From Pelagomonas calceolata (Eukaryota), in the NCBI GenBank assembly GCA_918797485.1, contig CAKKNE010000002.1, forward strand, positions 2,790,001-2,854,000: 64,000 bases of DNA, written 5' to 3'. The notes below the pieces were generated by a model. The model made no database searches and was not told where the DNA came from. It saw only the letters and a list, made by a program, of their open reading frames with translations. A program made the position numbers and the translations under genes. This document shows, one piece after another, positions 11,008 to 31,090 of the stretch; within the stretch, counting starts at the first letter, position 1, and each line of letters begins with the position of its first letter.

Positions 11008-14000
11008 ATGGCCGCAGACGAACAATTAAGAAAACTCCTCGCCGCCCATGCCCCCAAAAGGACAACCACCGCCGCGCCTCCACAGCCCATCGACGACGAG
11101 GGCGCGGCCGCCGCGGCGCGCGCGGAGCTGCGGCGCCAGCGGCCGGCGTCGCGGAGCGACGCGCCGGCGGAGACGCTCGAGAGCGCGCTGAGCCAGGGCT
11201 CGGCGCGCGCCTTGGCCGCCGCGCTGGCGCGCATGCCCGCGAGCGGCGCGGCGACCGAGGCGCAGCGCGCCGACTGTAGAAAATTATTAGCCTTGCGGCC
11301 GCTGCCCTTGGATCGGTACGCGGCGGCATTGGCGGCGGCGGCCGAGCGCGAACGCGACGCCGCCTATAGAAGGGCGCGCGCCCGATTGCGCTTCGTCGAC
11401 GGCGGCGAGGCGACCGGCCCGGACGAGTTCGACGCGACGCGCATCGGCGCGCTGGCGGCCTGCTCCCAGCTCCGGGCGCCGCGCAAGCGCGACGTGGCCG
11501 CGGGCCGCGCGCGCTACTACTTCGAGGCGTCGCTCCGGTCGGCGGGCGCCGCGGGTACCTTAGGATGGGGCCGCCACGAGGCCGACGGGTCCACCACGAT
11601 CGTCGCCGCCATCACCTTTCGGGGCGGTATTAGGGAAGCGAGCTGGTCCTCGGTCGAAGACGATTACGGCGAGGACGTCGCTCTACTCAATGAAGAAGAC
11701 GAGCCGCCGGCGCCGCCGGCGCGGCGGCCGCGGCGCACGCCGGGCCAGCACCCTAATTCGGTCCAGGCGCCGCCGCAGCGCGTCGCCGGCTGTCTCTATG
11801 ATGCGCACTCGAACAGCGTGGCCTTTGCGCTCGACGGAGTCTGCGTGCGCGTGTGCCGCGTGCCGGGCGACGGCGGCCTCTTCCCGATCTGTCGGGCAGA
11901 CCCGAGCGCCGCGCCGTTAGATGATGATGATGAAGACGAGGAGCGCAAGGAGGCCGAGACGCGCGGCGTGCGGCTGAACGCGGGCGCGCAGTCTTTTAGT
12001 CGAGACCCCGAGGGGCTCGCGGCGTCGCTGCAAAAGGCCCTGCAACTCAAGGGCGAGCCGCGGCTGCGGTGTCGAGCCGCGCGGTCCGCGACGCGGGCGA
12101 CGTTTCTCAGAGGGGCCGTCAAAGCGCAAGCGACGGACGTGGCGACGCTCGAGGTCGTGTGCCGCTTCGATGAAAAGCCACCAGCACGCGTCTGCGTCGC
12201 GCGCGCGCCGGCCATGAGTTTGTGGGTGGAATTTGACGAAGACCGAGAACGGTGCGTCTGCGCGTTTTCCGGGTCAAGTGTCGCGTCGCCCTGGGTCCAG
12301 GCGCGCTTGGAGCGCTGGCGCCATCTCGCCGTGAGCATCGGCGACGACGGCCCGCCCTCGATGTACGGCGACGGCGCGCTGCTCGACGCGGCGCCGTGCG
12401 AGTTTGAACAAAATGATAGTGACGACGTCGCCTTCGGCCTGCCCTGCGACGACACGGCAGACCAATTCTGCGGCACTATTTCAGAGTGCCGCGCGTGGTC
12501 TTCATCTAGAACGCCGCGCGCCGTCTCGGCGCGGTGCGGCCGCGGCGCGTGCGCCGGCGACGAGCCGGACCTCATAGGCTTGTGGCCCCTCGACGAGGGC
12601 GTGGGTGGCGAAGCGCGGAACTGCGCCGTCCGGGCGCCGTCACCACTCAAGGAGGCGTGCGCCGTGTCTTCCGATGCATGGGTGCATGATGGTGATAACG
12701 ACGACGACGTCGAGACCGTCAGTCTACCGCAAGGCGACCCCGACGTGCTGGATCGGGAGGCCTTCCGGGACCCGGGCGACGACGACCCTGCGGAGCTGAC
12801 GGACGCGCTGATGGCTTGCGTGACAAGGGCTCGGGACGAAGAAGAGGCGTCGCTCCAAGTATTATCAATAGCGGCCCACGCGCGCACCTTCCAGCTGGCC
12901 TCTGTTGCATTGTGGGCCCAGCGCAGCGACGAGGACCAGGCTCGACGGTTGCGGGCGGACGCCGACGACGCGACGCGCTTGGTCGCGGGCCGGCCCCAGC
13001 TGCCGGCGGCGCTGCCGGCCTGCGCTTCTATGTTAACGCGGAGCCTCGCTTCCGTAAATGAGGTCTCGGCCGCCGCGGCGCTGTGCGCGGCGCGCTGGGC
13101 GCGCGCCGCCGCGGGGTGGCTACGAAGGTCGCGCGCATCGACGCGCGAGGCGGCGTTACCTAAAGCCGTGCGCGAGGAGCTGGTAAGGGCGGCCGTGCGC
13201 GTCGCCGAGGGGGCCCTCGGCACTGATGATGATATAGTGAGAAGGCACGCGCGCGTCGAGTGCGCGCGCCTCGTCGCCGACCACGCCGATCTGTTGTTTG
13301 ACGCCGTCGATGCAAGAAGGTCCTGCTTCGTGCGGTCGTTGGAGGACCACCCGGGCCTCCTGGCCGAGTTTCTTGGGAGGAGGTACGCGGCGAGCCCGCA
13401 ATTGTTGTCCGAGCTCGTGCCGCCGTCACTCCGGCCCGTGCGCTTGGGTAAGGCCCGGCGCCTCTGCACGAAGGCGGCGCAGGATGCCATTGATGACGCC
13501 AAAGCATTGACCGGGAATGGCGTCGAGTACACGGACAGGGCGCCGTGCCGGCGAGGCGACGTTTGCATTCTCACGACGCGGTCGCCGCGCGAGGCGCGGA
13601 CGGTGGGCATCGTGACGGACGTGGACGGCAACAATATAAAAGTAGAGTGGCGCGAGGGGCCCCGGAAGCGGCGGGCCGACCCGGTGCAAAAGTATCCCAA
13701 TGGAGACGTGTTGTTACGAAGGTGCTCGGCGCGGCGGGTCCTGGGGCCCGCGCTCGTGGGCGACGACGACGCGCCGCGGTGCCCGTCGGCCCTCAAGAAG
13801 CGGGTCTTAGTGGATGGCCTACGGCTCGTGGCGACGCGGAGCTGGCTCGCGCGGCGGCGCTTGTTGCTCGAGCCGCCCGACGCGCTGCCCGACGAGGCCA
13901 GCGGCGAGCCGCCGCCGGACCCGCGCGGCGACGTGGCGCGTTCGCGGACCTGCGACGACCTAAGAGCGCTCTACGAGGACGCGTGCGGCGAGTTCGGCTA

Positions 14001-17000
14001 TTGGCCGGCGACGCTCGACGACGCGACGGCGAACCAAGGCGAGGCCGAGGCGCGGTGCCTGACGTTGTTCGGGCGACTCATAGAGCTGCTCGACGGCCAC
14101 GCCTGGGCGCGGGACTTGTTTGACGCCATGCTCGCCGAGGCCGGCGCCGACGACGAAGAAATTGATAGTGAGCGCTTCTGCGGCGCGCCGCGGGTGCTGA
14201 GCCGAGTGGCGCGCGACCTCATGACTATTCCAAATCAAAAAGAGCGCGCCCTGTCCGCATTAGCCGCGCTGGCGCGCTTCGACGCCGTGGACGGCGCCGC
14301 GGCCAAAGAGCTGCTCGCCGCGCTCAAGAACAAAGCGGACGGGCCCGCGGCGGTCGTGGCGCGCGTCGCCGGGCTGGCCCTCGCGGCGCTGGCGCGGCCG
14401 CCGCCCCTGGCCTTGCAGGGCGTCGAGCCCTGCGCCTTTGACGAAGGCACGGGCGAGGCGGCCGTTCCCGCGTTCGCCTCCGTCAAAGACAACTGCACGT
14501 CCGTCGCCGCGCCTCTCCTAAATCTGGGCGGTGCCGTCCTCGAGCCGGCCGTCGAGGCACTCTGGCGCGCGAGCGTGATGCTCGGAGGCGACCCGGCGGA
14601 CGCGTTCGCGACGGCCGCGCCGGGCGTTCGCATCTGGGCCAAGGGCCGCGCCGCGGAGCACGTCCTCGAGGCGAGCGCGGCCCACGTCGTCGCGGCGAGC
14701 GCCGCCCTGGCCACGCTCGCGGCACAAGCGGCGCCGGCCGTCGCGCTCCGCGAGGCGACGCGCGACGACGCCGCGGAGCGCTGCCTGGCCTTCCGCCGGC
14801 GCGCGGCGCGGCGCGCTTCTGCTGCATCCAATCGCCGCTGGGCCCTGCGCGCGGCCCTCGAGCTCTACGAGGCGCTGCCGCCCGCGGCGCGCGGCCCGCT
14901 CGCGCGCGAGATCGCCCGCGCGCTCTGGCCGGGCTGCAACGCGGTGACGCCCCCGGACCGGGACGCCCTGGCCTACGCGCAGCGCGCGGTCGCCGCGGAC
15001 GGGTCCTTCGCGGCGCTCTACGGCGCGCTGGGCGAGGACGCGCTCCGGGCCGCGCGCGCGGGCGACGACGTCGCGCCGCTCCTGTCCTGCTTCTCCGACG
15101 ACACGCTGCCGCCAGAAACGGTGGAGACGCTCGTGAGCGTCGAGCGGGCGCTGCGGGACCGCGGGCGGCACGACGACGCGCGCGCGGCGCTCGAGACGCT
15201 CTTCAAGGTCCGGGCGCCGGCCGCGGCCCTCCTCGCCGCGGCGACGGCGCACGCGGCCAAGCTCCCCGAGTCGCACGCGGACCGCGCCTGCGCCGCGGTC
15301 TGCTTCGCCGTCGCGGACGCCGAGGGCGCCGCCTGGGCGCCGTTCTGCGCCGAGGTCGTCGCGCGGGCGCCGCCGCACGGCGACGCGCGCGCCGCCGGCT
15401 GGCGCCTCGCGGAGACGCTGCTGAAGCGGCCGGAGGCCGCGGGCGATGCTATTTGCGCCCTCGCGGCGCGCGCGCTCGAGGGCTGCCCGCGGCCGGGGCC
15501 CGCGCGCGCGGCGCGCGCGGCGCTCTGCCTCCCGGCGTCGGGCGCGGCGCCCCTCGCCGTCGCGACGCTGGCCGAGGGCGGCGCCAAGGCCACGGCCCTC
15601 CTCGAGGCGATCGGTCTGACGACCTTTCTGGGCGTCGACGGCCACGCGGAGAACCTCGACGGCGTCGCGGACGACGTCGCGGCGGCGGTCTTCGAGCTCT
15701 TCGCGACGCGCTGCCTCGACAACTCCGACTCCGAAAGCGACGAGCGCGGCCGCGCCGCCGCCGCGGCCGCGGCCGTGGCGCTGGCCGTCGCGGGCGTCGC
15801 GTCGGACGCGGGCCGCGCGCGGCGCGCGCGGCTGCGCGAGACGCTCGCGCGCGAGGGCCGCGGCGCGGCGCTGCTGCGCCTGGCGGCCGCGCCGCTCGCG
15901 GGCGTGCCCGGCCTCGGGGCCCTCGCGCGCCTGAAGGACGCCGCGACCGACGCGCGGCCCGCGGAGACCGCCGACGCGGCGGCCGTCGAGCGCCTCGCGG
16001 AGATGGGCTTCGACCGGGGCTGGTGCGAGACCGCCCTGCTCGACGCGCGCGGCGACGTCGACGCGGCTTTGGCGACGCTGCTTGGCCGCGCCGCGGACGC
16101 CGAGGCCGCGGCGGAGGCGCCCCCGGCGACCGACGACCCGTTCCCGCGCCACTACGCCTGCGAGCGCGCGGCGGTCGTCGTGCGGTCCGCGCCGCGGCGG
16201 ACGGCCCCGGCCGTCGCGCGCCTCGTCGACCACGACGTCGTCGCCGTCGAGCAGCGCGGCGCGTGGCTGCGCGTGCGCGCGGCGCGGCGCGGCGGCGGCG
16301 CGGCGCCACCGCGCGACGCCCTCTACGCGGCGTTCCAGGGCGGCCGCGTGGCGCTGAGCACGGGGTCCGTCGCGTCGACGGACGACGACGCGCCCGCGGC
16401 GCCGGCGCTGCATTTATTGAGGCGGGGCCTCGACACACCGGCGACGCCCGCCGCGCTGAGCGCCGAGAACTTGAGAAGGCGCCTGCGCAGCGACGGCGTC
16501 GTCCTGGGCAGCGGCTTCACGCCGCCGGAGCAGCAGCGCGCGCCCTCGGAGGTGAGCGCCGCGCCGTCGGAGATGACGGCGAACGTGAGCGACGTCGGCG
16601 AGCTGCTGCGCGGGTCGCGCCGCCAGGTCCGCGAGGTCACGGTCCAGGAGGAGCTCGACGACGACGACGACGACGGGGGCGACGACCAGGGGTCGCTCGT
16701 CGAGCCGGCCGGGTCTTTGATCGAGGACGCGTCCGCGGCGCCGAGCGTCTCGGCCACGGAGACGGAGGACGCGACGCGGACGACGGCGATCGACGCGTCC
16801 GTGGCGTCCTTCGAGCCGCCGGCGCGGCGCGCCGCGTCCATCGCGTCGAGCTGGACGAACGCGCGCGCGTCGCTCGCGGGCGACGACGGCGTGTCGGACC
16901 GCATCTCGGAGCAGCCCGATCAGGAGGAGTCCGACGACGCGTCGCTCGACGACGAGGACGCGTCGCTGGTCGAACCGGCGCGCGCGCCGCGGCCGCCCGC

Positions 17001-20000
17001 CCAGGCCTCCGGCTGGGTCCTCGCGGCGGACCTCGCGCCCTTTTGCGTGCGGCCCCGCCGGGCGCGCCCGGCCCGGGGTCCCGCGCCCTACCCGGGCCTC
17101 GAGCGCGACGTCGGCGACGAGGCCTACCGCCGCGACGACCGCTTCTTCGGCGCGCGGCACGGCAGCTCGCCGCCAGACGCCGACGCCTGCGCGGACGGCG
17201 CTCGAAGTGGATCAAGTCCGCTGGGCCGGACGCGGCGCGCGGCGCGCGCGGCGCCGGACGCGTGCTGGGCCGCGCTCTGGCGGCTGCGCGCGCGCGAGCT
17301 GCTCGTGGCTTTAGTGTCCGCGTGGGCGGCCGGCGACGAGGGCGTCGTCGAGGACGCGCGGCCGCTCGTCGCCTTATTGAGCGATGAGGAGGGCGTGCCG
17401 CGCGAGTTCGCGTCGTTTTTGGCGCTGGTCCTCTTCCGCGACTGGCGGCCGGCGTGGTGGCCGCGCGACGCGACGGCCAAGGCCTTGACGGGCCGGCCCG
17501 CGGCCGCGCCGCTGTCCTTTGAGCTGCGGGGCGCGCTGCTGCCGGCGCTGCTGCAGCGGCCGACGCGGCTGCTGCTGCGCCACGCGACGTTCGGGCCGCC
17601 GCTCGCCGCGGCGCTCGCGGACGTCTGTAGGCGGCACGTCGCGACGGACGCGGGCCCGAAGGCCGACGCGGACGCCTGCGCGGTGCTGTTTGGGGAGGAA
17701 GACGACCCGCTCGTCGTGAACGACGACGACGCCGTGAAGGGCGGCCGCCTCGCACTCGCGCAGTGGTGCTGCCGGACGCTCACGGAGGAGCCCACGGCGG
17801 CCCTCGACGGCGCCTTCGACGCCTTTTCGTCGCTCCTCGCGAGCGACGACCTGCGGCGCAAGCAGCACGCCTGCGCCGAGCTCGCGCGCGTGCTCGCGGC
17901 GCTGCAAGACCGCGGCGACGACGACAAAGCCTCAGAGCTCGCGCGGCGGCTGCCGCGGCGGCGCCTCGAGAATTTAGCAAGGCGGCGGTGCCTGCGCGAG
18001 GCCGAGGACGCGCCGGTCCACTCGCGCGTCTGCCAGGCCTTCGTGGACCTCGCGGCGCGCGTGAGGGCGCTCTGCCCGGCCGACGGCGAACATGACCGGG
18101 CGCGCTTCGCGCTCGAGCTGACGGGCGGCGAGGCGCGCGTCGAGGTGAACGCCGGCGACGTGCCGCCGCCCTGGACCGCGGAGTTCGTCTTGCGCCGCGA
18201 CCGGCTCGACGACGCGGCCGAGCCGCCGAACGACGACTCCGACGAGGACGACGACGACGCCACGGACGGCGGCGCGACGTGGCTCGCGCCCGTCGTCCTC
18301 GCGGGGTCGCGCGCGGGCGCGGAGCTGCGCCTCCAGCACGGCGGCGCGGCCTTTGGCGACGGCGGGCCGGACGCGCCGGACGAGGCCGCGTGCGTCTCCG
18401 TCGACGGCCAGACCTTTGAATATAAAGTGCCCACGGAGAAGTGGGTTCACCTCGCCTTCGTCTGCCGCGAGCGGCGCGCGACGTCGACGGCGGCGCTCTG
18501 CCCGCGCGCGTTCGACTCTTACGAAGCGGCGCCGAAGCACGTCGTCGAGCTCTTCGCGGACGGCCGCCTCGTGGGCTGCGTCGCGAGCGCGGCGGCCCTG
18601 CCGCTGGGCGCGGTGGGGCTGGTCGAGGGCGCGGCGCCGTCCACAGAAAAGCGGCCGCGCGCGCCGCCCGCGCGGTCGCCGCGCGCGCGCGTCGCGCTCG
18701 CGCGCTACTGGTGCGTCGCGCGCACGGCGGCGGACGTGCGGCGGTCCTGCGAGCGCCAGGCGCCCCTGGGCGCCGCCCGCGGGTTGTTGGCGGCCTTTCG
18801 GTTGGCCTTTGACGACGCCGAGGACGCGGGCTGGCCCGCGACGCGCGCGCCGTCCGTCGTGGAGGACGCCACGGGGAATCATCGAAGCGTGAACCTCGCG
18901 GGGGGCGCGGTCTGGATCAAGGCGCCGCGCGCGCCGCTCGAGCCCATCTGCAAAGAAAGAGAGCCCTTTGACTTTTTGGAGGCGCGCGGCACGACGACGC
19001 GACGGGCCGTGACCGGCGTGCAGGCCGGCGTGCTAGCCCGGGACAAGAACGAGGCCTTTGTGTTGCGACTAAGACGCAAGGGCGCGCAGCATTTGGAAGG
19101 GGAGGCCGAGTGGACGGAGCGCGGGCTCGTCTGCGCGGTCAAGGGCTCCGTGAAGGAGGACAAGTTCCGCGTGGTCGTCGGCGACGTGCTGCACGGCTCG
19201 TGCGGCGACGACTCCGACGACGACCCCGGGAGAGCCGACGACGAGCGCGCCTGCGACGGCTGCTGCGCGGTGTCGCCGCGCGACGCCGTTATTTCCGGAG
19301 AGCGGACGGCGTTCGGCGAGTGGTCCGGTAGTGTGGAGTTCGAGGTCGACGCGGTGCAGAAGCACTATGTGGACCAGGGTTTGTTGGACGAGGCGGCGCT
19401 GCCGAAGGGACTAGACGTGAGAGAAGTGGGCGGTGCGTTCGCGGACGCGAACGACGCACTCAGGACGCCGCGGCGCGCCCTGGTCGTGGCGGCCGCGAGC
19501 GGCGGGCGGTTCTGCGGCGTGGCGTCGGCGCCCGTCGCTTTTGATGGAGAGAGCGACGAGGACGACGCGCCGGCGTGCGACGCGTCGCGGCTCAAGGACG
19601 ACGACGCCGGCGTCAAGGCCGGCGACGCGTCGCTCGCCGCCGACGTCGCGGCCCGGGCCTGCGCGCGGAAGCTGTCGTCGTTAGATCTGGACAAGCCCCA
19701 GGCGCCCATCAAGGCCCAGGTCGACGCGGCGCTGGAGTTGGCAGACGCGGCGCGCGTCGCGCGCGCGAAAGCGCGGCGCCTGAATAAGCCCGTGGCCGAC
19801 GCGGCGACCTGCGCCGAGCGCGCGCGGCGGCGCGACGCGGGCCCGCCGCCGCGCGAGGTCTCGGCCAAGAAGCCGCCTCCCCAAAAGCCGCAAGACCCCG
19901 TGCCGCGCGGGTCGAGCGGCGGCCGCACGTCCACGAAGATCGTGGAGAAGGCGCCCAACCTCGGCTCGGCCAAGCAGAACACGCGGATTGTGGGCGAGCC

Positions 20001-23000
20001 GCCCGCGGGCACGCTGCACGTGCGGATCCGCGACAACGTCGCCGCGCTCGGCGAGGAGACCTACTTTAAGGTGAAGTGGTCGACGCGCATGGAGCGCGTC
20101 TTCCAGGCCTACGCCGTGCGCAAGCGCAGTTCGCTCGACACGCTGCGCTTCCGGCTCCCGGGCGCGGACCGCGACATCGGCATGGACGAGACGTCCACCA
20201 GTCTCGGTCTGGAGGATTTGGCCTTAATAGACTGCTTCGCCAAGGAGCCTGAGGAGCTCATGAAGGAGGAGGAGCTCGCGCCCGCGCGCGCCGTCGAGGC
20301 CGCCGTCGACGCGGCGCTCGACGCGGCGCGCGCCGCGGCCGAGGCCGAGGCGCCGCCCTCACCACCGCGGCCGGGCCGGCCGCGGCCGCCCTCGTCCCCC
20401 AAGCAGGAGGCCGACGCGAAGGAGGCCCGGGACCTCGACCCGCCCTCGTCGTCGAAGAACGAGGTCGGGTCCTTCGGCGCGACGAGCGGCGTCTGGTGCT
20501 GGGAGTGGGAGGCGCGGCGCGTCGCTTCCGGTGACGTCGGCGTTGGTCTAGTGGCGGCGGGCCACGACGCGACCACGGCATTGGGCGGATCGAAGACGTC
20601 GCCGTGGTGCTACCGGTCGTGCGGCGCTCTGGCGGGCCGAGGCGAGGTGCGAAGCGCGCCGGCCTTCGGGGCGGGCGACGTGATCGGCGTCGAGCTGCGG
20701 ATCGAGGGCGGCAGGGGCTCCGTGCGCTTCTACAAGAACGACGTCGAGGCCACGGCGCAGCAGGCCACGGAAGCGTCGCTGGCGACGCTGAAGATCGCCG
20801 AGATCCCGGAGGGGGGCCTGCGGCCGGCGTGTCATGTGGGAGGCGCCGGCGACGCGCTCATCTGGCGGGGCTGCAAGCGCGGGCGGTCCGCTCGGTCGTA
20901 CGCGCCCGAGGGCTGCGAGGACTGCGACGGCGCGCGGTCCTACGAAGGTTCATACGACGCGCGGACGGGCGCGCGCCACGGGCCTAGTGGTGTGGTCCGC
21001 TACCGGCGCTGCGCGGGCCGCTGGGTCGGCCCGTGGCGGCGCGACCGCATGCACGGCGTGCAGCTCTGGGTCGAGCCGGCGCCGGCATCCCAGGAGGCGT
21101 CGGCGTTTTGCGACGGCGACGAGATCGTGGCGCCGGTCTTATTCCTGGACGGGCGGCGCATCCGCGCGTTGGACGACGAGGACGGCGCCGAGGCGATGCG
21201 CTCCTACTTCGCGTCCAAGGCCCAGGCGCCGGAGGAGGCGGCCGCGGAGGAGCAACCGGCGCTGTCCGAGGAGGAAGACGACGAGGACTGCGGCGAGGAC
21301 CAGCCGCCCTGGACCTTGCGTGTCGTTTACCGAGAAGGAGCCACCGCCAGGCGAGGCGTAGAAATCGACGCGAGCGATGTGGTCGGGCGCGTCGGCGCGG
21401 GCGAGGAGGTCGTGGCCCATAAGCGCGCGGTGACGCAGGACGGCGTGCCGCGCTACCTGGTCAAGCTGCCCCGGTCGGGCGACGAGGAGGACAAGTCGGG
21501 CTGGATCTCGGAACGATTAAGAGGCGGCGCGCGCGACGCGGTCTGTGTGGTCCTAAGACACGTCGTGCGGGGCCGGCCGCTGCGCTATCGGGTCGTGCGG
21601 CCGGGCGGCGCCATGGTGCGCGCGACGCCTTCCTTAGATGGCGCGGAGGTCGGTCTCGCTCCGGCCTGGACGGCGCTGAACGTGGCCGAGCGCGTCAGAT
21701 TGCCGGGCGGCACGACGCGGTTGCGGGTCGTGGCGCCGTCGCGCTGGGCGGGCTGGGCGTCCGAGAAGGATCATATTGTCCGGCGCGAGCCGTCGCGCGC
21801 GGAGGTGGCGCGGGCCGCCCGCGCGCGCGAGGCGCGGCGGAGGCGGCGCGTGCGTAAAGCGCGGGAGGACGCCGACAAGGCACGCGTGACGCGGCTCGAA
21901 AGGAAGCGTAGGGCCAAGCGGCCGGCCGTCGAGTTGCCTCCCGTGAGGGCGACGTGGGCCTGCCGCGCGGAGACGCGCCACTTGCTGGATCGAAGGGAGT
22001 GCGGCGCGGGCCTGAAGGTAAGCGAGGACCTGCTGACGGCGACGTGCACGGCGCCGCGGCGAGGCCGCGGCCTCGCGCTGGCGTCGACGCGCATGCGGAC
22101 GGGGCGGCATTACTGGGAGGTCGCCGTCGAGCGCGCGACGTGGGGCTCCGTGTTTGTGGGCGTGGCGGCCGTCGGCGCGGGCCGCGGCCCGGCGGCGCCG
22201 CTCAAGGCGCCCGGCGCGGCCGCCGGCTGGGCGGGCGTGGGGTTCGTGAACTACCGGGCGACGCAGGCCTTCGGCGCCGAAGCTTTGTATGGCTCGTACT
22301 ACGGCCCCGGCGACGTCGTCGGCGTTTTATTAGATTGCGATCGAGGCACTTTGTCTTTCGTGAAGGATGGAGACGATTTCAACGCGGGCCGGGCCGTCGT
22401 GGCCCATTTAGGCACGGCCTACAGCGATGTGTGGCGGCGGTTCGGGCGAAGTTGCCCTGGCGCTCGGGCCGGGCTCTACGCCTGTTTGGGCTTGAAGGGC
22501 GACGGCGACCGGCTGAGCCTGCGCGGCTCCAAGGCCTGGACCGACGGCATGGACGTGCCGCCGCGATTGGACGCGTTCCAACGGGCGGCGGGCGGCATCG
22601 AAGCGCTACGCGCGTTCGCCGAAGCGCGGCGGTTTTCGACAGCGCTCCCGGACGCGTTCCGCGCGGCGGCCGCGGCCGCGACGGCGAAGTGGCGCGAGAC
22701 CTTTGATGGGGTGCAAGGGAAGCGGGTCCTCGCGCGGTCGCGCGCGCGCGTCGACGTCGCGCTCGACGCGTCGGAGGAGGCATTCGCGAAAGCATTGGAC
22801 CGCGCGGGCCGGCCCGAAGCCCAGCTCAAGGCCGGGGACACGGTCGACGCGCCGCACGGCAACGGCGTCGTGCTCGGCTGCGACGCGCACCATCGCGTCT
22901 GGGCGGCGGTGCCGGGCGTCGACGACGACAGGGCCTGGTACTGGACGCCCGAGGAGCTCGCGCGGCGACTCGACGACGGGTTGGTGGCGCCGGCCTCGGA

Positions 23001-24771
23001 CTCGAGCGAGGACCTGGTGGCCTGGCCCGACGCGGGCGCGGAAGCGTGGCCGTGGTCGGCGCAGTGCGACGCGGAGCTCGTGGCAGTCGTCGACGGCGTG
23101 GCGGCGCGGCGGAACTGCGCGCCGGCGCTGGCGCCGCCGTCGCTCGTGGCCAAGGCGCTGGCCTTCGACGCCGACCACAGGTGCGGCCGCGTCGGCGCGT
23201 TGCGGGGCTGCCCGGCGCCCGTCGTCGCGGCGCGGCTGGGCGAGCTGCTCCACCTCGATGCGAGCGTTTCGACGGTATTGCCGTTCCTCGATTTGTCGAG
23301 CGGCGACGCCGCGGCCGCGGACTTTGAAAAGGGCGGGTCGCACTACGCGGCGGCCGACGGCGGCGGCGGCTTGAGCGGCACGGGGCCGGATTCGTGGTGG
23401 GCCGGCCTCGTGCCGCAGCACACGGCGTATGATGCGGAAGTCGCCCAAGAGACGCCCGCTCTGTCGGCCCTCCTCGCGCCGGCTTCAAAAAGTGTGGGCG
23501 GTCGAGCCTACGTGAAGTGCCGGGACGCCGTCTTCGACGCGACGAAGCGCAAGTACTGGCGCGACGTGCTCGAGGCCACGACGACGCATACGCCGCCGCC
23601 GCCCGACGAGTACGACCGGCCCGAGGAGCTGCGGGAGTTTGTTGTGGATCGGTTGAGGGCGACGAAAGCCCCACTGACCGACGACGACGACGGCGACGAG
23701 GCGGCGCGCCTGGCGAGGCGCGAACACCCGACAGTCTTCGGCCAGCTGCGGAATCAACTGCGGGGCGTGCGGCCGGCGCAGCTGCGCCGGGCCTTTGTGC
23801 ACATGCAGGACGGGGGGCAACCTAGAGCCTTTTACGTCAAGTTCGTCGGCGAGGGCGTCGACGACCACGGCGGGCCGTACCGGGCGACCTTCCAGGCGGC
23901 TTTGGCGGACGAGCCGGTGCGGAGCTTGCAACTTGTTACGGAAGGAGGCGCGTTGAACTCGTCGGGGAGTTGTCCGGAGGCCTGGTTCCACCATTTAGGG
24001 AGGTTACTAGGCGTCGCGGGCCGGCACCGCGTGCCGGTGGCGCTGGAGCTCGGCGCGTCGGTCTGGGCGCCGTTATCCGGCGAGCCGCTGTCAAAAACCT
24101 TCGCGGCGGACGCCGACGGCGCGATCGGCTGCGCGCTCGAGGAGTGCTACGGCTCGAAGCCGAGCGTCGACGCGGTCGAGCGCCTGGCGGATGTCGTTGG
24201 GCCCATGGACGACCCTAACACCTTGGCGCTGCACGCCTCGCAGACGCTAGCGGCGCGCCAGCGGCCGAGCCTCGCGCGGCTCGCGCGCGGCGCGGGCGCG
24301 GCCCTGCCGAACGAGCTCTTCGCGCTCTTCGGCCCGAAGCGCCTCAAGGACGTCGTCTGCGGCGAGGCGCGCGTCGACCTCCAGGACCTCCAGGCGCGCG
24401 CGACCTACGAGGGCGGCGTCTGCGCCGACGACGCGCACGTCGAGAAGCTGTGGGACGCGCTCGCGACCTTCGACGCCGACGAGCTCGCGGGCTTCGTCGA
24501 GTTCTGCTCCGGGTCGGCGCGGCCGCCGCGCCGCGACGCGCCGCGATCCACTAGAGCTCTGAAGATCACGGCGCCGCCGCCGGGCGCCGAGCGCGAGCCC
24601 GACGCGTACTTCCCGCTCTCGCAGACGTGCTTCTTCTCGCTGGCGCTGCCGCGCTACTCGTCCGTCGACATCTGCGCCGAGAAGCTGCGGTACGCCATCA
24701 CGCACGCGCACCTCATGGACGCTGACTTCCTCCTGCGACAGGCGGACGGCTGGGAGGCCATGTCGCCCTGA
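11008..24771 (+). CDS. Giant multidomain HECT E3 ubiquitin ligase (SPRY, LamG/ConA-like, UBA, SUMO-like, MORN-like, HECT)
   Basis: Single 4587-aa ORF. C-terminal HECT motifs VKFVGEGVDDHGGPY and FPLSQTCFFSLALPRYSS; SPRY motifs GRHYWEV and GDVVGVLLDCDRGTLSF; UBA motif VERLAEMGF. Confidence 0.9.
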   Translation: MAADEQLRKLLAAHAPKRTTTAAPPQPIDDEGAAAAARAELRRQRPASRSDAPAETLESALSQGSARALAAALARMPASGAATEAQRADCRKLLALRPLPLDRYAAALAAAAERERDAAYRRARARLRFVDGGEATGPDEFDATRIGALAACSQLRAPRKRDVAAGRARYYFEASLRSAGAAGTLGWGRHEADGSTTIVAAITFRGGIREASWSSVEDDYGEDVALLNEEDEPPAPPARRPRRTPGQHPNSVQAPPQRVAGCLYDAHSNSVAFALDGVCVRVCRVPGDGGLFPICRADPSAAPLDDDDEDEERKEAETRGVRLNAGAQSFSRDPEGLAASLQKALQLKGEPRLRCRAARSATRATFLRGAVKAQATDVATLEVVCRFDEKPPARVCVARAPAMSLWVEFDEDRERCVCAFSGSSVASPWVQARLERWRHLAVSIGDDGPPSMYGDGALLDAAPCEFEQNDSDDVAFGLPCDDTADQFCGTISECRAWSSSRTPRAVSARCGRGACAGDEPDLIGLWPLDEGVGGEARNCAVRAPSPLKEACAVSSDAWVHDGDNDDDVETVSLPQGDPDVLDREAFRDPGDDDPAELTDALMACVTRARDEEEASLQVLSIAAHARTFQLASVALWAQRSDEDQARRLRADADDATRLVAGRPQLPAALPACASMLTRSLASVNEVSAAAALCAARWARAAAGWLRRSRASTREAALPKAVREELVRAAVRVAEGALGTDDDIVRRHARVECARLVADHADLLFDAVDARRSCFVRSLEDHPGLLAEFLGRRYAASPQLLSELVPPSLRPVRLGKARRLCTKAAQDAIDDAKALTGNGVEYTDRAPCRRGDVCILTTRSPREARTVGIVTDVDGNNIKVEWREGPRKRRADPVQKYPNGDVLLRRCSARRVLGPALVGDDDAPRCPSALKKRVLVDGLRLVATRSWLARRRLLLEPPDALPDEASGEPPPDPRGDVARSRTCDDLRALYEDACGEFGYWPATLDDATANQGEAEARCLTLFGRLIELLDGHAWARDLFDAMLAEAGADDEEIDSERFCGAPRVLSRVARDLMTIPNQKERALSALAALARFDAVDGAAAKELLAALKNKADGPAAVVARVAGLALAALARPPPLALQGVEPCAFDEGTGEAAVPAFASVKDNCTSVAAPLLNLGGAVLEPAVEALWRASVMLGGDPADAFATAAPGVRIWAKGRAAEHVLEASAAHVVAASAALATLAAQAAPAVALREATRDDAAERCLAFRRRAARRASAASNRRWALRAALELYEALPPAARGPLAREIARALWPGCNAVTPPDRDALAYAQRAVAADGSFAALYGALGEDALRAARAGDDVAPLLSCFSDDTLPPETVETLVSVERALRDRGRHDDARAALETLFKVRAPAAALLAAATAHAAKLPESHADRACAAVCFAVADAEGAAWAPFCAEVVARAPPHGDARAAGWRLAETLLKRPEAAGDAICALAARALEGCPRPGPARAARAALCLPASGAAPLAVATLAEGGAKATALLEAIGLTTFLGVDGHAENLDGVADDVAAAVFELFATRCLDNSDSESDERGRAAAAAAAVALAVAGVASDAGRARRARLRETLAREGRGAALLRLAAAPLAGVPGLGALARLKDAATDARPAETADAAAVERLAEMGFDRGWCETALLDARGDVDAALATLLGRAADAEAAAEAPPATDDPFPRHYACERAAVVVRSAPRRTAPAVARLVDHDVVAVEQRGAWLRVRAARRGGGAAPPRDALYAAFQGGRVALSTGSVASTDDDAPAAPALHLLRRGLDTPATPAALSAENLRRRLRSDGVVLGSGFTPPEQQRAPSEVSAAPSEMTANVSDVGELLRGSRRQVREVTVQEELDDDDDDGGDDQGSLVEPAGSLIEDASAAPSVSATETEDATRTTAIDASVASFEPPARRAASIASSWTNARASLAGDDGVSDRISEQPDQEESDDASLDDEDASLVEPARAPRPPAQASGWVLAADLAPFCVRPRRARPARGPAPYPGLERDVGDEAYRRDDRFFGARHGSSPPDADACADGARSGSSPLGRTRRAARAAPDACWAALWRLRARELLVALVSAWAAGDEGVVEDARPLVALLSDEEGVPREFASFLALVLFRDWRPAWWPRDATAKALTGRPAAAPLSFELRGALLPALLQRPTRLLLRHATFGPPLAAALADVCRRHVATDAGPKADADACAVLFGEEDDPLVVNDDDAVKGGRLALAQWCCRTLTEEPTAALDGAFDAFSSLLASDDLRRKQHACAELARVLAALQDRGDDDKASELARRLPRRRLENLARRRCLREAEDAPVHSRVCQAFVDLAARVRALCPADGEHDRARFALELTGGEARVEVNAGDVPPPWTAEFVLRRDRLDDAAEPPNDDSDEDDDDATDGGATWLAPVVLAGSRAGAELRLQHGGAAFGDGGPDAPDEAACVSVDGQTFEYKVPTEKWVHLAFVCRERRATSTAALCPRAFDSYEAAPKHVVELFADGRLVGCVASAAALPLGAVGLVEGAAPSTEKRPRAPPARSPRARVALARYWCVARTAADVRRSCERQAPLGAARGLLAAFRLAFDDAEDAGWPATRAPSVVEDATGNHRSVNLAGGAVWIKAPRAPLEPICKEREPFDFLEARGTTTRRAVTGVQAGVLARDKNEAFVLRLRRKGAQHLEGEAEWTERGLVCAVKGSVKEDKFRVVVGDVLHGSCGDDSDDDPGRADDERACDGCCAVSPRDAVISGERTAFGEWSGSVEFEVDAVQKHYVDQGLLDEAALPKGLDVREVGGAFADANDALRTPRRALVVAAASGGRFCGVASAPVAFDGESDEDDAPACDASRLKDDDAGVKAGDASLAADVAARACARKLSSLDLDKPQAPIKAQVDAALELADAARVARAKARRLNKPVADAATCAERARRRDAGPPPREVSAKKPPPQKPQDPVPRGSSGGRTSTKIVEKAPNLGSAKQNTRIVGEPPAGTLHVRIRDNVAALGEETYFKVKWSTRMERVFQAYAVRKRSSLDTLRFRLPGADRDIGMDETSTSLGLEDLALIDCFAKEPEELMKEEELAPARAVEAAVDAALDAARAAAEAEAPPSPPRPGRPRPPSSPKQEADAKEARDLDPPSSSKNEVGSFGATSGVWCWEWEARRVASGDVGVGLVAAGHDATTALGGSKTSPWCYRSCGALAGRGEVRSAPAFGAGDVIGVELRIEGGRGSVRFYKNDVEATAQQATEASLATLKIAEIPEGGLRPACHVGGAGDALIWRGCKRGRSARSYAPEGCEDCDGARSYEGSYDARTGARHGPSGVVRYRRCAGRWVGPWRRDRMHGVQLWVEPAPASQEASAFCDGDEIVAPVLFLDGRRIRALDDEDGAEAMRSYFASKAQAPEEAAAEEQPALSEEEDDEDCGEDQPPWTLRVVYREGATARRGVEIDASDVVGRVGAGEEVVAHKRAVTQDGVPRYLVKLPRSGDEEDKSGWISERLRGGARDAVCVVLRHVVRGRPLRYRVVRPGGAMVRATPSLDGAEVGLAPAWTALNVAERVRLPGGTTRLRVVAPSRWAGWASEKDHIVRREPSRAEVARAARAREARRRRRVRKAREDADKARVTRLERKRRAKRPAVELPPVRATWACRAETRHLLDRRECGAGLKVSEDLLTATCTAPRRGRGLALASTRMRTGRHYWEVAVERATWGSVFVGVAAVGAGRGPAAPLKAPGAAAGWAGVGFVNYRATQAFGAEALYGSYYGPGDVVGVLLDCDRGTLSFVKDGDDFNAGRAVVAHLGTAYSDVWRRFGRSCPGARAGLYACLGLKGDGDRLSLRGSKAWTDGMDVPPRLDAFQRAAGGIEALRAFAEARRFSTALPDAFRAAAAAATAKWRETFDGVQGKRVLARSRARVDVALDASEEAFAKALDRAGRPEAQLKAGDTVDAPHGNGVVLGCDAHHRVWAAVPGVDDDRAWYWTPEELARRLDDGLVAPASDSSEDLVAWPDAGAEAWPWSAQCDAELVAVVDGVAARRNCAPALAPPSLVAKALAFDADHRCGRVGALRGCPAPVVAARLGELLHLDASVSTVLPFLDLSSGDAAAADFEKGGSHYAAADGGGGLSGTGPDSWWAGLVPQHTAYDAEVAQETPALSALLAPASKSVGGRAYVKCRDAVFDATKRKYWRDVLEATTTHTPPPPDEYDRPEELREFVVDRLRATKAPLTDDDDGDEAARLARREHPTVFGQLRNQLRGVRPAQLRRAFVHMQDGGQPRAFYVKFVGEGVDDHGGPYRATFQAALADEPVRSLQLVTEGGALNSSGSCPEAWFHHLGRLLGVAGRHRVPVALELGASVWAPLSGEPLSKTFAADADGAIGCALEECYGSKPSVDAVERLADVVGPMDDPNTLALHASQTLAARQRPSLARLARGAGAALPNELFALFGPKRLKDVVCGEARVDLQDLQARATYEGGVCADDAHVEKLWDALATFDADELAGFVEFCSGSARPPRRDAPRSTRALKITAPPPGAEREPDAYFPLSQTCFFSLALPRYSSVDICAEKLRYAITHAHLMDADFLLRQADGWEAMSP

Positions 24772-28151: not shown

Positions 28152-29165
28152 TCACGAATAGACGACGCGGTGGCACAGCCCGGCCGCCCCGGCGCGCGCG
28201 CCGCAGACGCGTGGCAGCGCGGCGGGCAGGTCCTCGAACGCGACGGCGTCGCGCTCGAAGAGCACGTCGAGCGACGCGTCGCCCGCCAGCTTCAGGGCGA
28301 GATTCATCCGCCGCGTATAATCCCAGCGCGGCCGCTTCGACGGCGGCAGGTTGCCGACCTGCGAGCTTTTGAGCGTCAGCCGCCGCGCGTGGAACGGCCC
28401 GCCGAGCGGGAGGGGCACGACGGTGCTCCCGTGCCACGATGCCTCGACCACGACGGCCTCGTCGCCGGCCAGCGCGAGTGCGGCCGCCGCGCCGGCCGCG
28501 GCGCCCGACGCGTGCACCACGACGTCGCGGTCGCCGGCCCCGTCGCCGAGCGCGCCCGCCAGGCCAAAGGACGCGCCCAGCGCCTCCGCCACCCGCCGCC
28601 GCCGCCCGTCGACGTCGACGAGCAGCACGTCGACGCCCGGGATGCGTGCTGCGACCCACGCCACGAGGCAGCCGACGACGCCCGCGCCGACGACGGCCAC
28701 GCGGTCGCCCACGCCGATGCCCGCGTCCCAGACGACGTTGATCGCCGTCTCCAGGTTCGGCGCCAGCACCGCGCGCGCCGACGGCGTCGCCGGCGGCACG
28801 ACCCGCACGTCCGCCGCCGGCACGACGTACGCGTCCTGGTGCGGGTGCAGGCAGAAGACGCGCGCGTTTCGTAGGTGTTCCACATCCTTACCACACGCCT
28901 CGACGACGCCGACGCTCACGTAGCCGTACTTCACGGGAAACTCGAACGACCCGCCCATGTGCGGGCAGCGCATGCGCGCGTGCTCCGACGCCGGCACGCG
29001 GCCGGCGAGCACCAGGGATTCCGTGCCTCGGCTGACCGCGCCGTGCGTCGCCCGAACGAGCACGTCGTCCGGTTTCAGGGCGGGCAGCGCTTCCTGCTGC
29101 AGCTCGCACTGGCCCGGTGCTCGGCACCAGCAGGCTCGTGCGGTTGTGGCTTGCATCGATGCCAT
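28152..29165 (-). CDS. Zinc-binding (MDR) dehydrogenase, bacterial-like
   Basis: VSRGTE, FPVKYGY, LHPHQD, Rossmann motif VVGAGVVG and LGGPFHARRL..SSQVG. Confidence 0.85.
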   Translation of the reverse strand: MASMQATTARACWCRAPGQCELQQEALPALKPDDVLVRATHGAVSRGTESLVLAGRVPASEHARMRCPHMGGSFEFPVKYGYVSVGVVEACGKDVEHLRNARVFCLHPHQDAYVVPAADVRVVPPATPSARAVLAPNLETAINVVWDAGIGVGDRVAVVGAGVVGCLVAWVAARIPGVDVLLVDVDGRRRRVAEALGASFGLAGALGDGAGDRDVVVHASGAAAGAAAALALAGDEAVVVEASWHGSTVVPLPLGGPFHARRLTLKSSQVGNLPPSKRPRWDYTRRMNLALKLAGDASLDVLFERDAVAFEDLPAALPRVCGARAGAAGLCHRVVYS

Positions 29166-29520: not shown

Positions 29521-31090
29521 CTAGTACTCCTCGCCGAAGTCCTCCTCCTCGCCCTCGCCCTCGGCGGTCTCGGCGCCGACCTCCTCGAAGTCCTTCTCGA
29601 GGGCCGCGAGGTCCTCGCGGGCCTCGGAGAACTCGCCCTCCTCCATGCCCTCGCCGACGTACCAGTGGACGAAGGCGCGCTTGGCGTACATGAGGTCGAA
29701 CTTGTGGTCGATGCGCGAGAGCGCCTCGCCGACGGCCGTCGTGTTGGCGACCATGCAGACCGCGCGCATGACGCGGGCCAAGTCGCCGCCGGGGACCTGC
29801 GGCGCCGGTCGGGGGTCGACGCGCGTCGTGTTGGGTTGGAGGAGCAGGGGTTTGAACCCTGGACTTTCCGCATGCAAAGCGGACGCTCTGCCACTGAGCT
29901 ACACCCCCGCGCAATTCCGACGGGACTCGAACCCGCAACCCCCAGATTCGAAGTCTGATACGCTATCCATTGCGCCACGGAATTTTCGGACGCGGGCCAC
30001 CGACGACCGTGGGCGGCTGGTAGTTGATGCCGCACTTGAAGCCCGTCGGGCACCAGTCGACGAACTGGATCGTGCGCTTGGTCTTGATCGTGGCGACCGA
30101 GGCGTTGACGTCCTTGGGGACGACGTCGCCGCGGTACATGAGGCAGCAGGCCATGTACTTGCCGTGGCGCGGGTCGCACTTGGTCATCATGCCGGCCGGC
30201 TCGAAGACCGAGTTCGTGATCTCGGCGACGGAGAGCTGCTCGTGGTACGCCTTCTCGGCCGAGATGACCGGCGCGTACGACGTGAGCATGAAGTGGATGC
30301 GCGGGTACGGCACGAGGTTCGTCTGGAACTCCGTGATGTCCACGTTGAGCGCGCCGTCGAAGCGGAGCGACGCCGTGAGCGACGAGGCCACCTGGGCGAA
30401 GAGGCGGTTGAGGTTCGTGTACGTCGGGCGCTCGATGTCGAGGTTGCGGCGGCAGACGTCGTAGAGGGCCTCGTTGTCGAGGGCGAACGTCACGTCCGTG
30501 TGCTCGAGGAGCGCGTGCGTCGAGAGCACCGAGTTGTAGGGCTCGACGACGGCGTTGGAGATCTGCGGCGCCGGCGAGATGCAGAACGAGAGCTTGGACT
30601 TGCGGCCGTAGTCGACCGAGAGGCGCTCGAGGAGGAGCGAGCCGAGGCCCGAGCCCGTGCCGCCGCCCGTGGCGTGGAAGGCGAGGAAGCCCTGGAGGCC
30701 CGTGCAGTTGTCCGCGAGCTTGCGGATGCGGTCGAGCACGAGGTCCACGATCTCCTTGCCGATCGTGTAGTGGCCGCGCGCGTAGTTGTTGGCCGCGTCC
30801 TCCTTGCCCGAGATGATCTGCTCGGGGTGGAAGAGCTGGCGGTACGTGCCCGTGCGGATCTCGTCGCAGACCGTCGGCTCGAGGTCGACGTAGACCGCGC
30901 GCGGGACGTGCTTGCCGGCGCCCGTCTCCGAGAAGAACGTGTTGAAGGCGTCGTCGCCGCCGCCGATGGTCTTGTCCGAGGGCATCTGGCCGTCGGGCTG
31001 GATGCCGTGCTCGAGGCAGAAGAGCTCCCAGCAGGCGTTACCGCCCTGGAGACCGGCCTGGCCGATGTGGATGCAGACGCACTCACGCAT
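29521..31090 (-). CDS. TUBA: Alpha-tubulin, 2 exons (31090-30005, 29796-29521), 453 aa
   Basis: [13 protein letters not shown]...GGGTGSG...QPPTV|VPGGDLA...EEY; phase-0 intron 30004-29797 (GTCGGT...CCGCAG). Confidence 0.98.
29837..29908 (-). tRNA. tRNA-Ala(UGC), inside the tubulin intron
   Basis: GGGGGTGTAGCTCAGTGGCAGAGC...TCCGC-TTTGCAT-GCGGA...GGTTCAAACCC; G3:U70 Ala identity pair; one U6.U67 mismatch. Confidence 0.93.
29912..29984 (-). tRNA. tRNA-Arg(UCG), inside the tubulin intron
   Basis: Cloverleaf: acceptor AATTCCG/CGGAATT, D arm GCGC-AATGGATA-GCGT, anticodon loop CTTCGAA, T loop TTCGAGT, discriminator G. Confidence 0.93.

What the first reader, a model, noticed from the sequence alone, without database searches (positions are those of the whole stretch)
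29797..30004. Alpha-tubulin intron is almost entirely a dicistronic tRNA cassette with no Pol III terminator
Seen: the 208-nt intron holds tRNA-Arg(UCG) and tRNA-Ala(UGC) on the same strand as tubulin, 3 nt apart (CGC), 20 nt from the donor and 40 nt from the acceptor. The first T-run of 4 or more on that strand is ~420 nt downstream (29418-29414), beyond the tubulin stop. Known: nuclear tRNAs are normally Pol III units ending in oligo-T, while intron hosting is typical of snoRNAs and miRNAs. Inference: these tRNAs may be cut by RNase P/Z from the spliced Pol II intron of a highly expressed gene, or tRNA excision may compete with splicing.
Basis: partly seen in the sequence, partly recalled or inferred. 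Interest (0 to 1): 0.8.

Follow-up and report, generated by a model that had tools for sequence, protein, structure and literature searches.

The report
tRNA genes riding in mobile introns
Two tRNA genes fill the intron of this marine alga's tubulin gene, and in related algal DNA the same tRNAs sit, without their usual stop signal, inside a family of look-alike introns in many unrelated genes, which suggests these algae likely cut their tRNAs out of messenger-RNA introns instead of transcribing them as separate genes.

Summary
Observation confirmed: a 208-nt GT-AG intron of alpha-tubulin holds intact tRNA-Arg(UCG) and tRNA-Ala(UGC), sense strand, 3 nt apart, with no T-run for 420 nt; two metatranscriptomes skip exactly these 208 nt. 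It is not a one-off. A metagenome scan gave 58 loci with this tRNA-Arg: 35 lie in complete, sense, in-frame introns (19 distinct sites curated: cyclophilin, ClpP, DJ-1, histone H2A, cold-shock, ABC-F and others), 17 show the one intron end their contig reaches, 6 are broken, chimeric or partial. None is shown to be free-standing. 0 of 31 introns have T4 after the last tRNA, against 13 of 13 control tRNA-Met loci. The introns are a family: non-tRNA flanks are 86-91% alike at three different positions of one gene, about 80% between unrelated genes, and empty sites are clean. Best reading (0.65): host Pol II transcripts supply the tRNAs, snoRNA-style, from introns that move. Rival (0.27): Pol III reading through. 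The polymerase is untested; only one tRNA seed was sampled. No paper found; this scan had noted only different cases (fungal nested tRNAs, Perkinsus fragments).

The parts
30005..31090 (-). alpha-tubulin exon 1 (host gene, 362 codons)
29797..30004 (-). 208-nt GT-AG phase-0 intron hosting the tRNA cassette
   Evidence: 208-nt skip in two RNA runs; same in L028
29985..30004 (-). 5' splice site and 20-nt leader with the CGCGTC motif shared by the intron family
29912..29984 (-). tRNA-Arg(UCG); acceptor pair 3:70 is U-A where 55 other copies have C-G (compensatory change)
29909..29911 (-). 3-nt spacer CGC; no terminator between the two tRNAs
   Evidence: one RNA contig of X16 bridges it
29837..29908 (-). 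tRNA-Ala(UGC), one base from the commonest copy
29797..29836 (-). 40-nt trailer with the GACGCGCGTCGAC family motif, a short complement of the donor and the 3' splice site; no T-run
29521..29796 (-). alpha-tubulin exon 2 to the stop codon
29414..29418 (-). first T5 run downstream, about 420 nt past tRNA-Ala, beyond the tubulin stop; the terminator a Pol III read-through would have to use

Best explanation
The tubulin intron is one member of a family of related tRNA-carrying spliceosomal introns in pelagophyte-like algae, and its two tRNAs are likely made as part of the host gene's Pol II transcript and cut out of the intron. Shown: intact tRNAs, sense orientation in in-frame introns of many genes, no oligo-T after the cassettes, homologous intron flanks at non-homologous positions, clean empty sites. 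Inferred: the host promoter replaces the Pol III unit; after (or during) splicing RNase P/PRORP and RNase Z cut each cloverleaf at its 5' and 3' ends, which also resolves multi-tRNA cassettes with spacers as short as 3 nt; the introns copy or move between exons (reverse splicing or a transposase acting on the weak terminal inverted repeat; not resolved) and exchange cassette content; copies in strongly expressed genes are kept because they supply tRNA.
For: Of 58 loci with this tRNA-Arg a hand tally gives 35 with both intron ends and an in-frame join, 14 donor only and 3 acceptor only (contig ends). Boundaries picked by splice motif alone, blind to frame, agreed in frame in 31 of 39 cassettes (about a third expected). 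Pfam on separate exons continues across the intron: cyclophilin 105|107 (two genes), ClpP 144|146, DJ-1 69|73, DUF3611 133|143, with downstream exons starting mid-domain for CSD (24), TPT (18), NPL (51), ABC (106). T>=4 within 25 nt of the last tRNA: 0 of 31 curated introns; over all tRNAs 7 of 107 downstream versus 19 of 107 upstream, none of the 7 a last tRNA; control intron-bearing tRNA-Met loci from the same scan 13 of 13. No TATA match in 31 leaders of 20-69 nt, upstream of which lies coding exon. Flank identity 86-91% among three positions of one ABC-F gene, 79-81% H2A/DJ-1, ABC-F/CSD, CSD/ClpP, median 47%; empty sites are uninterrupted, without duplication. In the published annotation of the pelagophyte Pelagomonas calceolata (PMC9481584 supplement, 14,639 rows held, 16,667 genes in the paper) Pol III subunits, Brf1, Bdp1, Maf1, PRORP, RNase Z and tRNA endonuclease are listed but no TFIIIC term was found. 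Precedent that Pol II transcripts yield tRNA: T. brucei tRNA-Sec (PMC2943599 passages).
Against: No call identifies the polymerase or shows mature tRNA from this locus. A and B boxes are intact, and the non-canonical tRNA introns in Ser and Leu leave the box cores readable. Many leaders end in a pyrimidine stretch plus CAA/CGAA, like a Pol III start site (PMC13578239 passages). Terminator-less tRNA genes occur elsewhere without a known Pol II origin (Chlamydomonas, Physcomitrella; PMC3531208 passages), and a second control group had T4 in only 9 of 16. The TFIIIC blank rests on keyword search of a cut table, TFIIIA was not found either, no stramenopile control was available, and the window's species is not established. 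Only loci carrying tRNA-Arg(UCG) were sampled (120 of about 190 stretches). L026/L070 and L035 end in a tRNA-Trp 5' half without a clear downstream exon, L119 is out of frame and L079 joins two genes. The window's own intron ends pair no better than shuffles (p 0.235; whole-intron z -0.65).
Confidence: 0.65

Rival explanations
1. The cassettes are autonomous polycistronic Pol III units. Pol III starts at the CAA-like site inside the intron, reads through the 3' exon to a distant T-run, and RNase Z trims the trailer. Their sense-intron location reflects only how the element spreads: flanked by splice sites, it is tolerated in exons in one orientation.
For: Intact A/B boxes; CAA/CGAA just before the first tRNA in many leaders; Pol III, Brf1, Bdp1, Maf1 and La annotated in a pelagophyte; polycistronic, terminator-poor tRNA genes in Chlamydomonas (PMC3531208); nematode intronic tRNAs are Pol III-occupied and modulated by the host promoter (PMC4999229).
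Against: No terminator at 31 of 31 cassette ends, against 13 of 13 controls; read-through of 420 nt here and 417 to 2426 nt at several other loci; no free-standing copy shown among 58 loci although 11% of a pelagophyte genome is intergenic; no TFIIIC term in the annotation.
Confidence: 0.27
2. The intronic tRNA sequences are mostly passengers (SINE-like or insulator/splicing elements) of a mobile intron, and the working tRNA genes lie elsewhere.
For: Some copies are degraded (L065/L073 tRNA-Arg, half tRNA-Trp in L026, L070, L035); depth in DNA run X2 suggests many Arg copies; tRNA-derived intron repeats were noted in Perkinsus by this scan (e1-7223338, untested here).
Against: 56 complete Arg copies keep the acceptor stem, the window's through a double change, and 20 Ala copies fall into 3 near-identical sequences while the flanks vary even where exons are 100% identical; at least seven tRNA types are carried; no canonical stand-alone copy appeared.
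Confidence: 0.08

Closest known systems
Intronic tRNA genes of Caenorhabditis (Sagi et al. 2016, PMC4999229; passages read)
   Same: tRNA genes inside introns of protein-coding genes (47% in C. elegans), linked to the host promoter.
   Different: Only 56% are sense there and they are Pol III-occupied; release from spliced introns is called a theoretical possibility. Here 19 of 19 curated sites are sense, cassettes fill the intron, terminators are absent and the introns are homologous across genes.
Trypanosoma brucei tRNA-Sec transcribed by Pol II (Aeby et al. 2010, PMC2943599; abstract and passages read)
   Same: A nuclear tRNA embedded in a Pol II unit and cut from its transcript.
   Different: One special tRNA lacking A/B boxes, in a polycistron spacer, not ordinary tRNAs in cis-spliced introns; experimentally proven there, inferred here.
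Intron-hosted RNase P RNA of insects (Palsule et al. 2019, PMC6797745; abstract and outline) and intronic snoRNAs (recalled)
   Same: An ancestral Pol III RNA relocated into a Pol II intron and matured from it.
   Different: Single RNA trimmed by exonucleases; here multi-tRNA cassettes, predicted endonucleolytic release, and mobile host introns.
Introner elements, including those of Aureococcus and Pelagomonas (Gozashti et al. 2022, PMC9860276 passages; PMC9481584 passages and supplement)
   Same: Related introns at unrelated positions, GT or GC donors, inverted-repeat-like ends, same algal group.
   Different: No tRNA mention in the papers searched; no target-site duplication or added codons here; hosts look like housekeeping genes whereas introners favour weakly expressed genes; no tRNA-less member was found in 255 kb.
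Polycistronic, terminator-poor tRNA genes of Chlamydomonas (PMC3531208 passages; the primary paper was not held)
   Same: Clustered tRNAs without poly-T between or after them.
   Different: Not described in the passages seen as confined to sense introns or to a mobile intron family.

Membership tests
Canonical Pol III type-2 tRNA gene | Internal A and B boxes | tested here: met
   Full-length Rfam alignments
Canonical Pol III type-2 tRNA gene | T>=4 terminator close downstream | tested here: not met
   420 nt in the window; 0 of 31 introns; controls 13 of 13 and 9 of 16
Canonical Pol III type-2 tRNA gene | TFIIIC/Pol III occupancy and own 5' start | not testable with these tools
   Only indirect: no TFIIIC term in a partial annotation table of a related pelagophyte; CAA-like leaders
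Intron-hosted, Pol II-derived ncRNA (snoRNA/RPR type) | Sense orientation inside a spliced intron | tested here: met
Intron-hosted, Pol II-derived ncRNA (snoRNA/RPR type) | No independent terminator or upstream promoter | tested here: inconclusive
   No T-run or TATA, but internal boxes could act as promoter
Intron-hosted, Pol II-derived ncRNA (snoRNA/RPR type) | Yield depends on host transcription or splicing | not testable with these tools
   Needs an experiment
Introner (transposon-derived intron family) | Similar introns at non-homologous positions | tested here: met
   Flank identity up to 91% versus median 47%; alignment; empty sites
Introner (transposon-derived intron family) | Terminal inverted repeats (many families) | tested here: inconclusive
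   First 6 nt pair 7-14 nt before the 3' end in 18 of 30 end pairs, shuffle mean 2.3, max 8; 13 of 19 sites beat shuffles, the window's did not; covariation not clean; sequences share ancestry
Aureococcus-type introner | 8-bp target-site duplication adding codons | tested here: not met
   Filled versus empty ABC-F, CSD and cyclophilin sites differ by the intron alone; definition from PMC9860276
Introner (transposon-derived intron family) | Autonomous mobilising transposase | not tested
   No genome held

The most novel reading that the evidence does not exclude
Pelagophyte picoalgae have abandoned stand-alone tRNA genes: their whole nuclear tRNA set is carried as cargo by a family of mobile spliceosomal introns, is transcribed by Pol II from housekeeping genes, and TFIIIC has been lost, so that intron transposition sets tRNA dosage and makes the introns indispensable.
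Probability: 0.3. Interest if true: 0.95.

Novelty: new variant of a known kind. Interest (0 to 1): 0.85.

Why it matters
Nuclear tRNA genes are taught as Pol III units; the one proven exception read here is a single special tRNA in trypanosomes, and release of tRNA from spliced introns has been raised only as a possibility. An abundant ocean alga group in which ordinary tRNAs sit systematically in sense introns gives a culturable system to test that directly. It would tie tRNA supply to Pol II activity and splicing, offer a natural counterpart to engineered tRNA-processing of Pol II transcripts, and give a case where mobile introns persist because of useful cargo, with sites and cassette content differing between close genomes.

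Tried and rejected
No genome for the window and none behind the metagenome loci, so no genome-wide count. Tubulin relatives in viral contigs: none. The Arg pattern in viral contigs gave 2 AT-rich giant-virus loci, unrelated; an Ala pattern in prokaryote genomes gave 2 bacterial matches, not examined further; the donor motif in viral contigs gave 71 matches, 0 followed by a tRNA-like sequence. Two automatic boundary finders based on codon score alone picked wrong junctions and two ab initio intron scans found no reliable set of ordinary introns, so a comparison with ordinary introns is missing. Of 58 loci I set aside L102 (41 nt of tRNA only), L079 and L119 (likely chimeras), and curated 31 introns of the complete ones, dropping near-duplicates; five boundaries (L007a, L072a, L009, L040, L081) and L028's donor were re-picked by hand using frame. 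Read data cover only the intron and short exon flanks; DNA runs X2/X10 show other tRNA copies but no tubulin exon cover, so whether that organism lacks the intron is not answerable. Low-depth RNA contigs inside the intron may be DNA carry-over. The idea that tRNA introns in Ser/Leu destroy the A/B boxes was tested and rejected. Folding the window intron gave no signal. The bacterial promoter/terminator scan was empty and is not relevant. The fourth row of alignment had wrong coordinates and is ignored. The script stopped after printing its control rows; counts 13 of 13 and 9 of 16 are read from those rows.

Full report
1. The observation. The window is GC-rich eukaryotic DNA; the gene next to tubulin has Aureococcus anophagefferens as its best named hit (65%), so the organism is pelagophyte-like; the species was not established. 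Alpha-tubulin runs on the minus strand from 31090 to 29521 with one 208-nt GT-AG phase-0 intron at 30004-29797; splicing restores a 453-aa protein and read-through meets a stop. ARAGORN and Rfam find exactly two RNA genes in the 64 kb, both in this intron: tRNA-Arg(UCG) and tRNA-Ala(UGC), 63.7 and 66.5 bits. Spacing (20, 3, 40 nt) and the first T-run (29418-29414) are as reported. RNA contigs from two studies skip exactly 208 nt; they could also come from intron-less relatives. L028, an independent contig, has the same locus. The Arg copy has U3-A70 where 55 other complete copies have C-G, a double change that keeps the stem.

2. It is a lineage-wide pattern. A 20-nt tRNA-Arg pattern returned 120 of about 190 metagenome stretches; 58 of the 122 loci then held carry this tRNA-Arg type. 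Hand tally: 35 have both intron ends and an in-frame join, 14 show a donor and run off the contig, 3 show only an acceptor, 3 end in a tRNA-Trp 5' half (L026, L070, L035), 2 look chimeric (L079, L119), 1 is a 41-nt fragment (L102). Motif-only boundary picks agreed in frame in 31 of 39 cassettes; five of the eight failures were resolved by another nearby AG or a GC donor, two had too little flank, one (L119) stayed out of frame. I curated 31 introns at 19 sites. Hosts confirmed by Pfam on separate exons include two cyclophilins, ClpP, DJ-1, DUF3611, cold-shock, triose-phosphate translocator, nucleoplasmin-like, ABC-F, histone H2A and methionine synthase (10 of 34 exon pieces had no family and two hosts, L065 and L052, none at all). 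All 19 sites are sense; I looked for hosts starting from the tRNA strand, and the sites are not independent. Exon identities of 82-100% between loci of one host gene show several distinct genomes. Cassettes hold 1 to 9 elements: Arg(UCG), Ala(UGC), Arg(UCU), Trp, Ser(UGA), Leu(UAG), Leu(UAA).

3. Terminators are missing. T>=4 within 25 nt after the last tRNA: 0 of 31 introns; anywhere before the acceptor: 1 of 31; in the 5' leader: 5 of 31. Over all distinct tRNAs 7 of 107 have T4 downstream, none last in a cassette, and 19 of 107 upstream. Intron-bearing tRNA-Met loci of other eukaryotes caught by the same scan have it in 13 of 13; a mixed second control in 9 of 16 (the group labels are mine).

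4. The introns are a family and have moved. Non-tRNA flanks are 86-91% identical among three positions of one ABC-F gene and 77-81% between H2A, DJ-1, cold-shock, ClpP and ABC-F, against a median of 47%; the tubulin intron's best match is 64% to a cyclophilin intron. L007 lacks the introns that L030 and L090 have, and the empty sites are uninterrupted with no duplication; the same holds for a cold-shock repeat and a cyclophilin paralog. One cyclophilin gene holds three such introns, with different cassettes in different genomes, and the cold-shock site has Arg-Ala in L040 but Ala-Arg in L042 and L071. The first 6 nt pair with a stretch 7-14 nt before the 3' end in 18 of 30 end pairs (shuffle mean 2.3), but covariation is not clean and the window's own ends are not significant. 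In 255 kb the 5' motif occurred 77 times, 38 before a tRNA; of the other 39 only 1 had a loose 3' motif, so no tRNA-less member was seen, in a sample chosen for tRNAs.

5. Mechanism. Most likely (0.65) the host's Pol II transcript is the precursor, and RNase P/PRORP and RNase Z release the cloverleaves from the intron; this step is inferred. In the annotation table of Pelagomonas calceolata (PMC9481584 supplement, 14,639 rows held; the paper gives 16,667 genes) Pol III subunits, Brf1, Bdp1, Maf1, La, PRORP, RNase Z and tRNA endonuclease appear, and no TFIIIC term does; TFIIIA is also missing, the table is cut, one supplement file was unreadable and no control species was available, so this is a lead only. 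C. merolae lacks TFIIIC subunits yet uses upstream TATA and T-stretches (PMC3978253 passages); here neither is present. The main rival (0.27) is Pol III read-through: boxes are intact, leaders often end in CAA/CGAA, and an RNA-based spread would give sense-intron sites whatever the polymerase. Passenger status is unlikely (0.08) given stem conservation against fast-changing flanks.

6. Comparison. Nematode intronic tRNAs are 56% sense and Pol III-occupied (PMC4999229 passages); T. brucei tRNA-Sec is a proven Pol II tRNA (PMC2943599 abstract and passages); insect RNase P RNA moved into a Pol II intron (PMC6797745 abstract); Chlamydomonas has terminator-poor polycistronic tRNAs (PMC3531208 passages; primary paper not held); introners are common in this group (PMC9860276 passages; PMC9481584) but the Aureococcus type adds a target-site duplication that is absent here. 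The system works like intron-hosted ncRNA carried by introner-like introns; it fails the terminator test for a canonical Pol III gene and the duplication test for Aureococcus introners.

7. Novelty. Nine paper searches ran plus one broad one (25 of 1,144 listed, none with the word introner); term look-ups in two 2026 tRNA-gene surveys (PMC13578239 abstract and passages; PMC13437025 passages) and one introner paper (PMC12130899, 0 occurrences of tRNA) showed no report of this arrangement. The library lacks most subscription papers, and bioRxiv supplements were closed. Earlier notes of this scan describe different cases. Verdict: real, lineage-wide, a new variant joining two known kinds; interest 0.85. 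If the full form holds (all tRNAs, Pol II, TFIIIC lost; probability 0.3) it would be a new kind of tRNA gene system.

Noticed in passing
L051 and others, e.g. oriented cassettes in L015, L025, L065, L074, L081: tRNA-Ser(UGA) carries a 25-29 nt hairpin insert at the T-stem/T-loop border (9 of 9 variants) and tRNA-Leu(UAG)/(UAA) a 20-25 nt insert in the D-loop (9 of 9; 4 of 5); removing them gives ARAGORN-valid tRNAs. Non-canonical tRNA introns like those of red algae; standard annotation miscalls them.
   Followed up: partly
cassettes of L007, L015, L026, L050, L051, L062, L065, L074, L081: A conserved Trp-like tRNA 3' half with a covarying T-stem (14 variants) whose leader is complementary to the tRNA-Trp anticodon loop; tRNA-Trp 5' halves occur in L026, L070, L035. 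Could be a split or permuted tRNA, a guide RNA or a relic.
   Followed up: partly
L102 (620 nt): Only the first 41 nt of the tRNA-Arg, then unrelated sequence; may mark an integration into a tRNA or an assembly join.
   Followed up: no
L043, L044: Dense arrays of 14-18 tRNAs interleaved with what look like 5S rRNA and U6 sequences (labels recalled, not tested) in another eukaryote.
   Followed up: no
L013, L038, L103, L106: Another GC-rich eukaryote with clustered tRNAs (Arg UCU, Lys, Ile, Val, Leu), most without a nearby T-run; host context not examined.
   Followed up: no
L010, L060, L061, L089, L122: Intron flanks differ strongly between loci whose upstream exon is 98-100% identical, suggesting frequent replacement or conversion of the intron.
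   Followed up: partly
L009, L015, L031, L111: GC rather than GT donors on some tRNA introns.
   Followed up: no
window 11008-24771 (+): A single 4587-codon uninterrupted ORF with SPRY and HECT domains.
   Followed up: no
window 28152-29165 (-): Zn-dependent dehydrogenase-like gene whose relatives beyond pelagophytes are mostly bacterial at 55-60% identity; possible old horizontal transfer.
   Followed up: no
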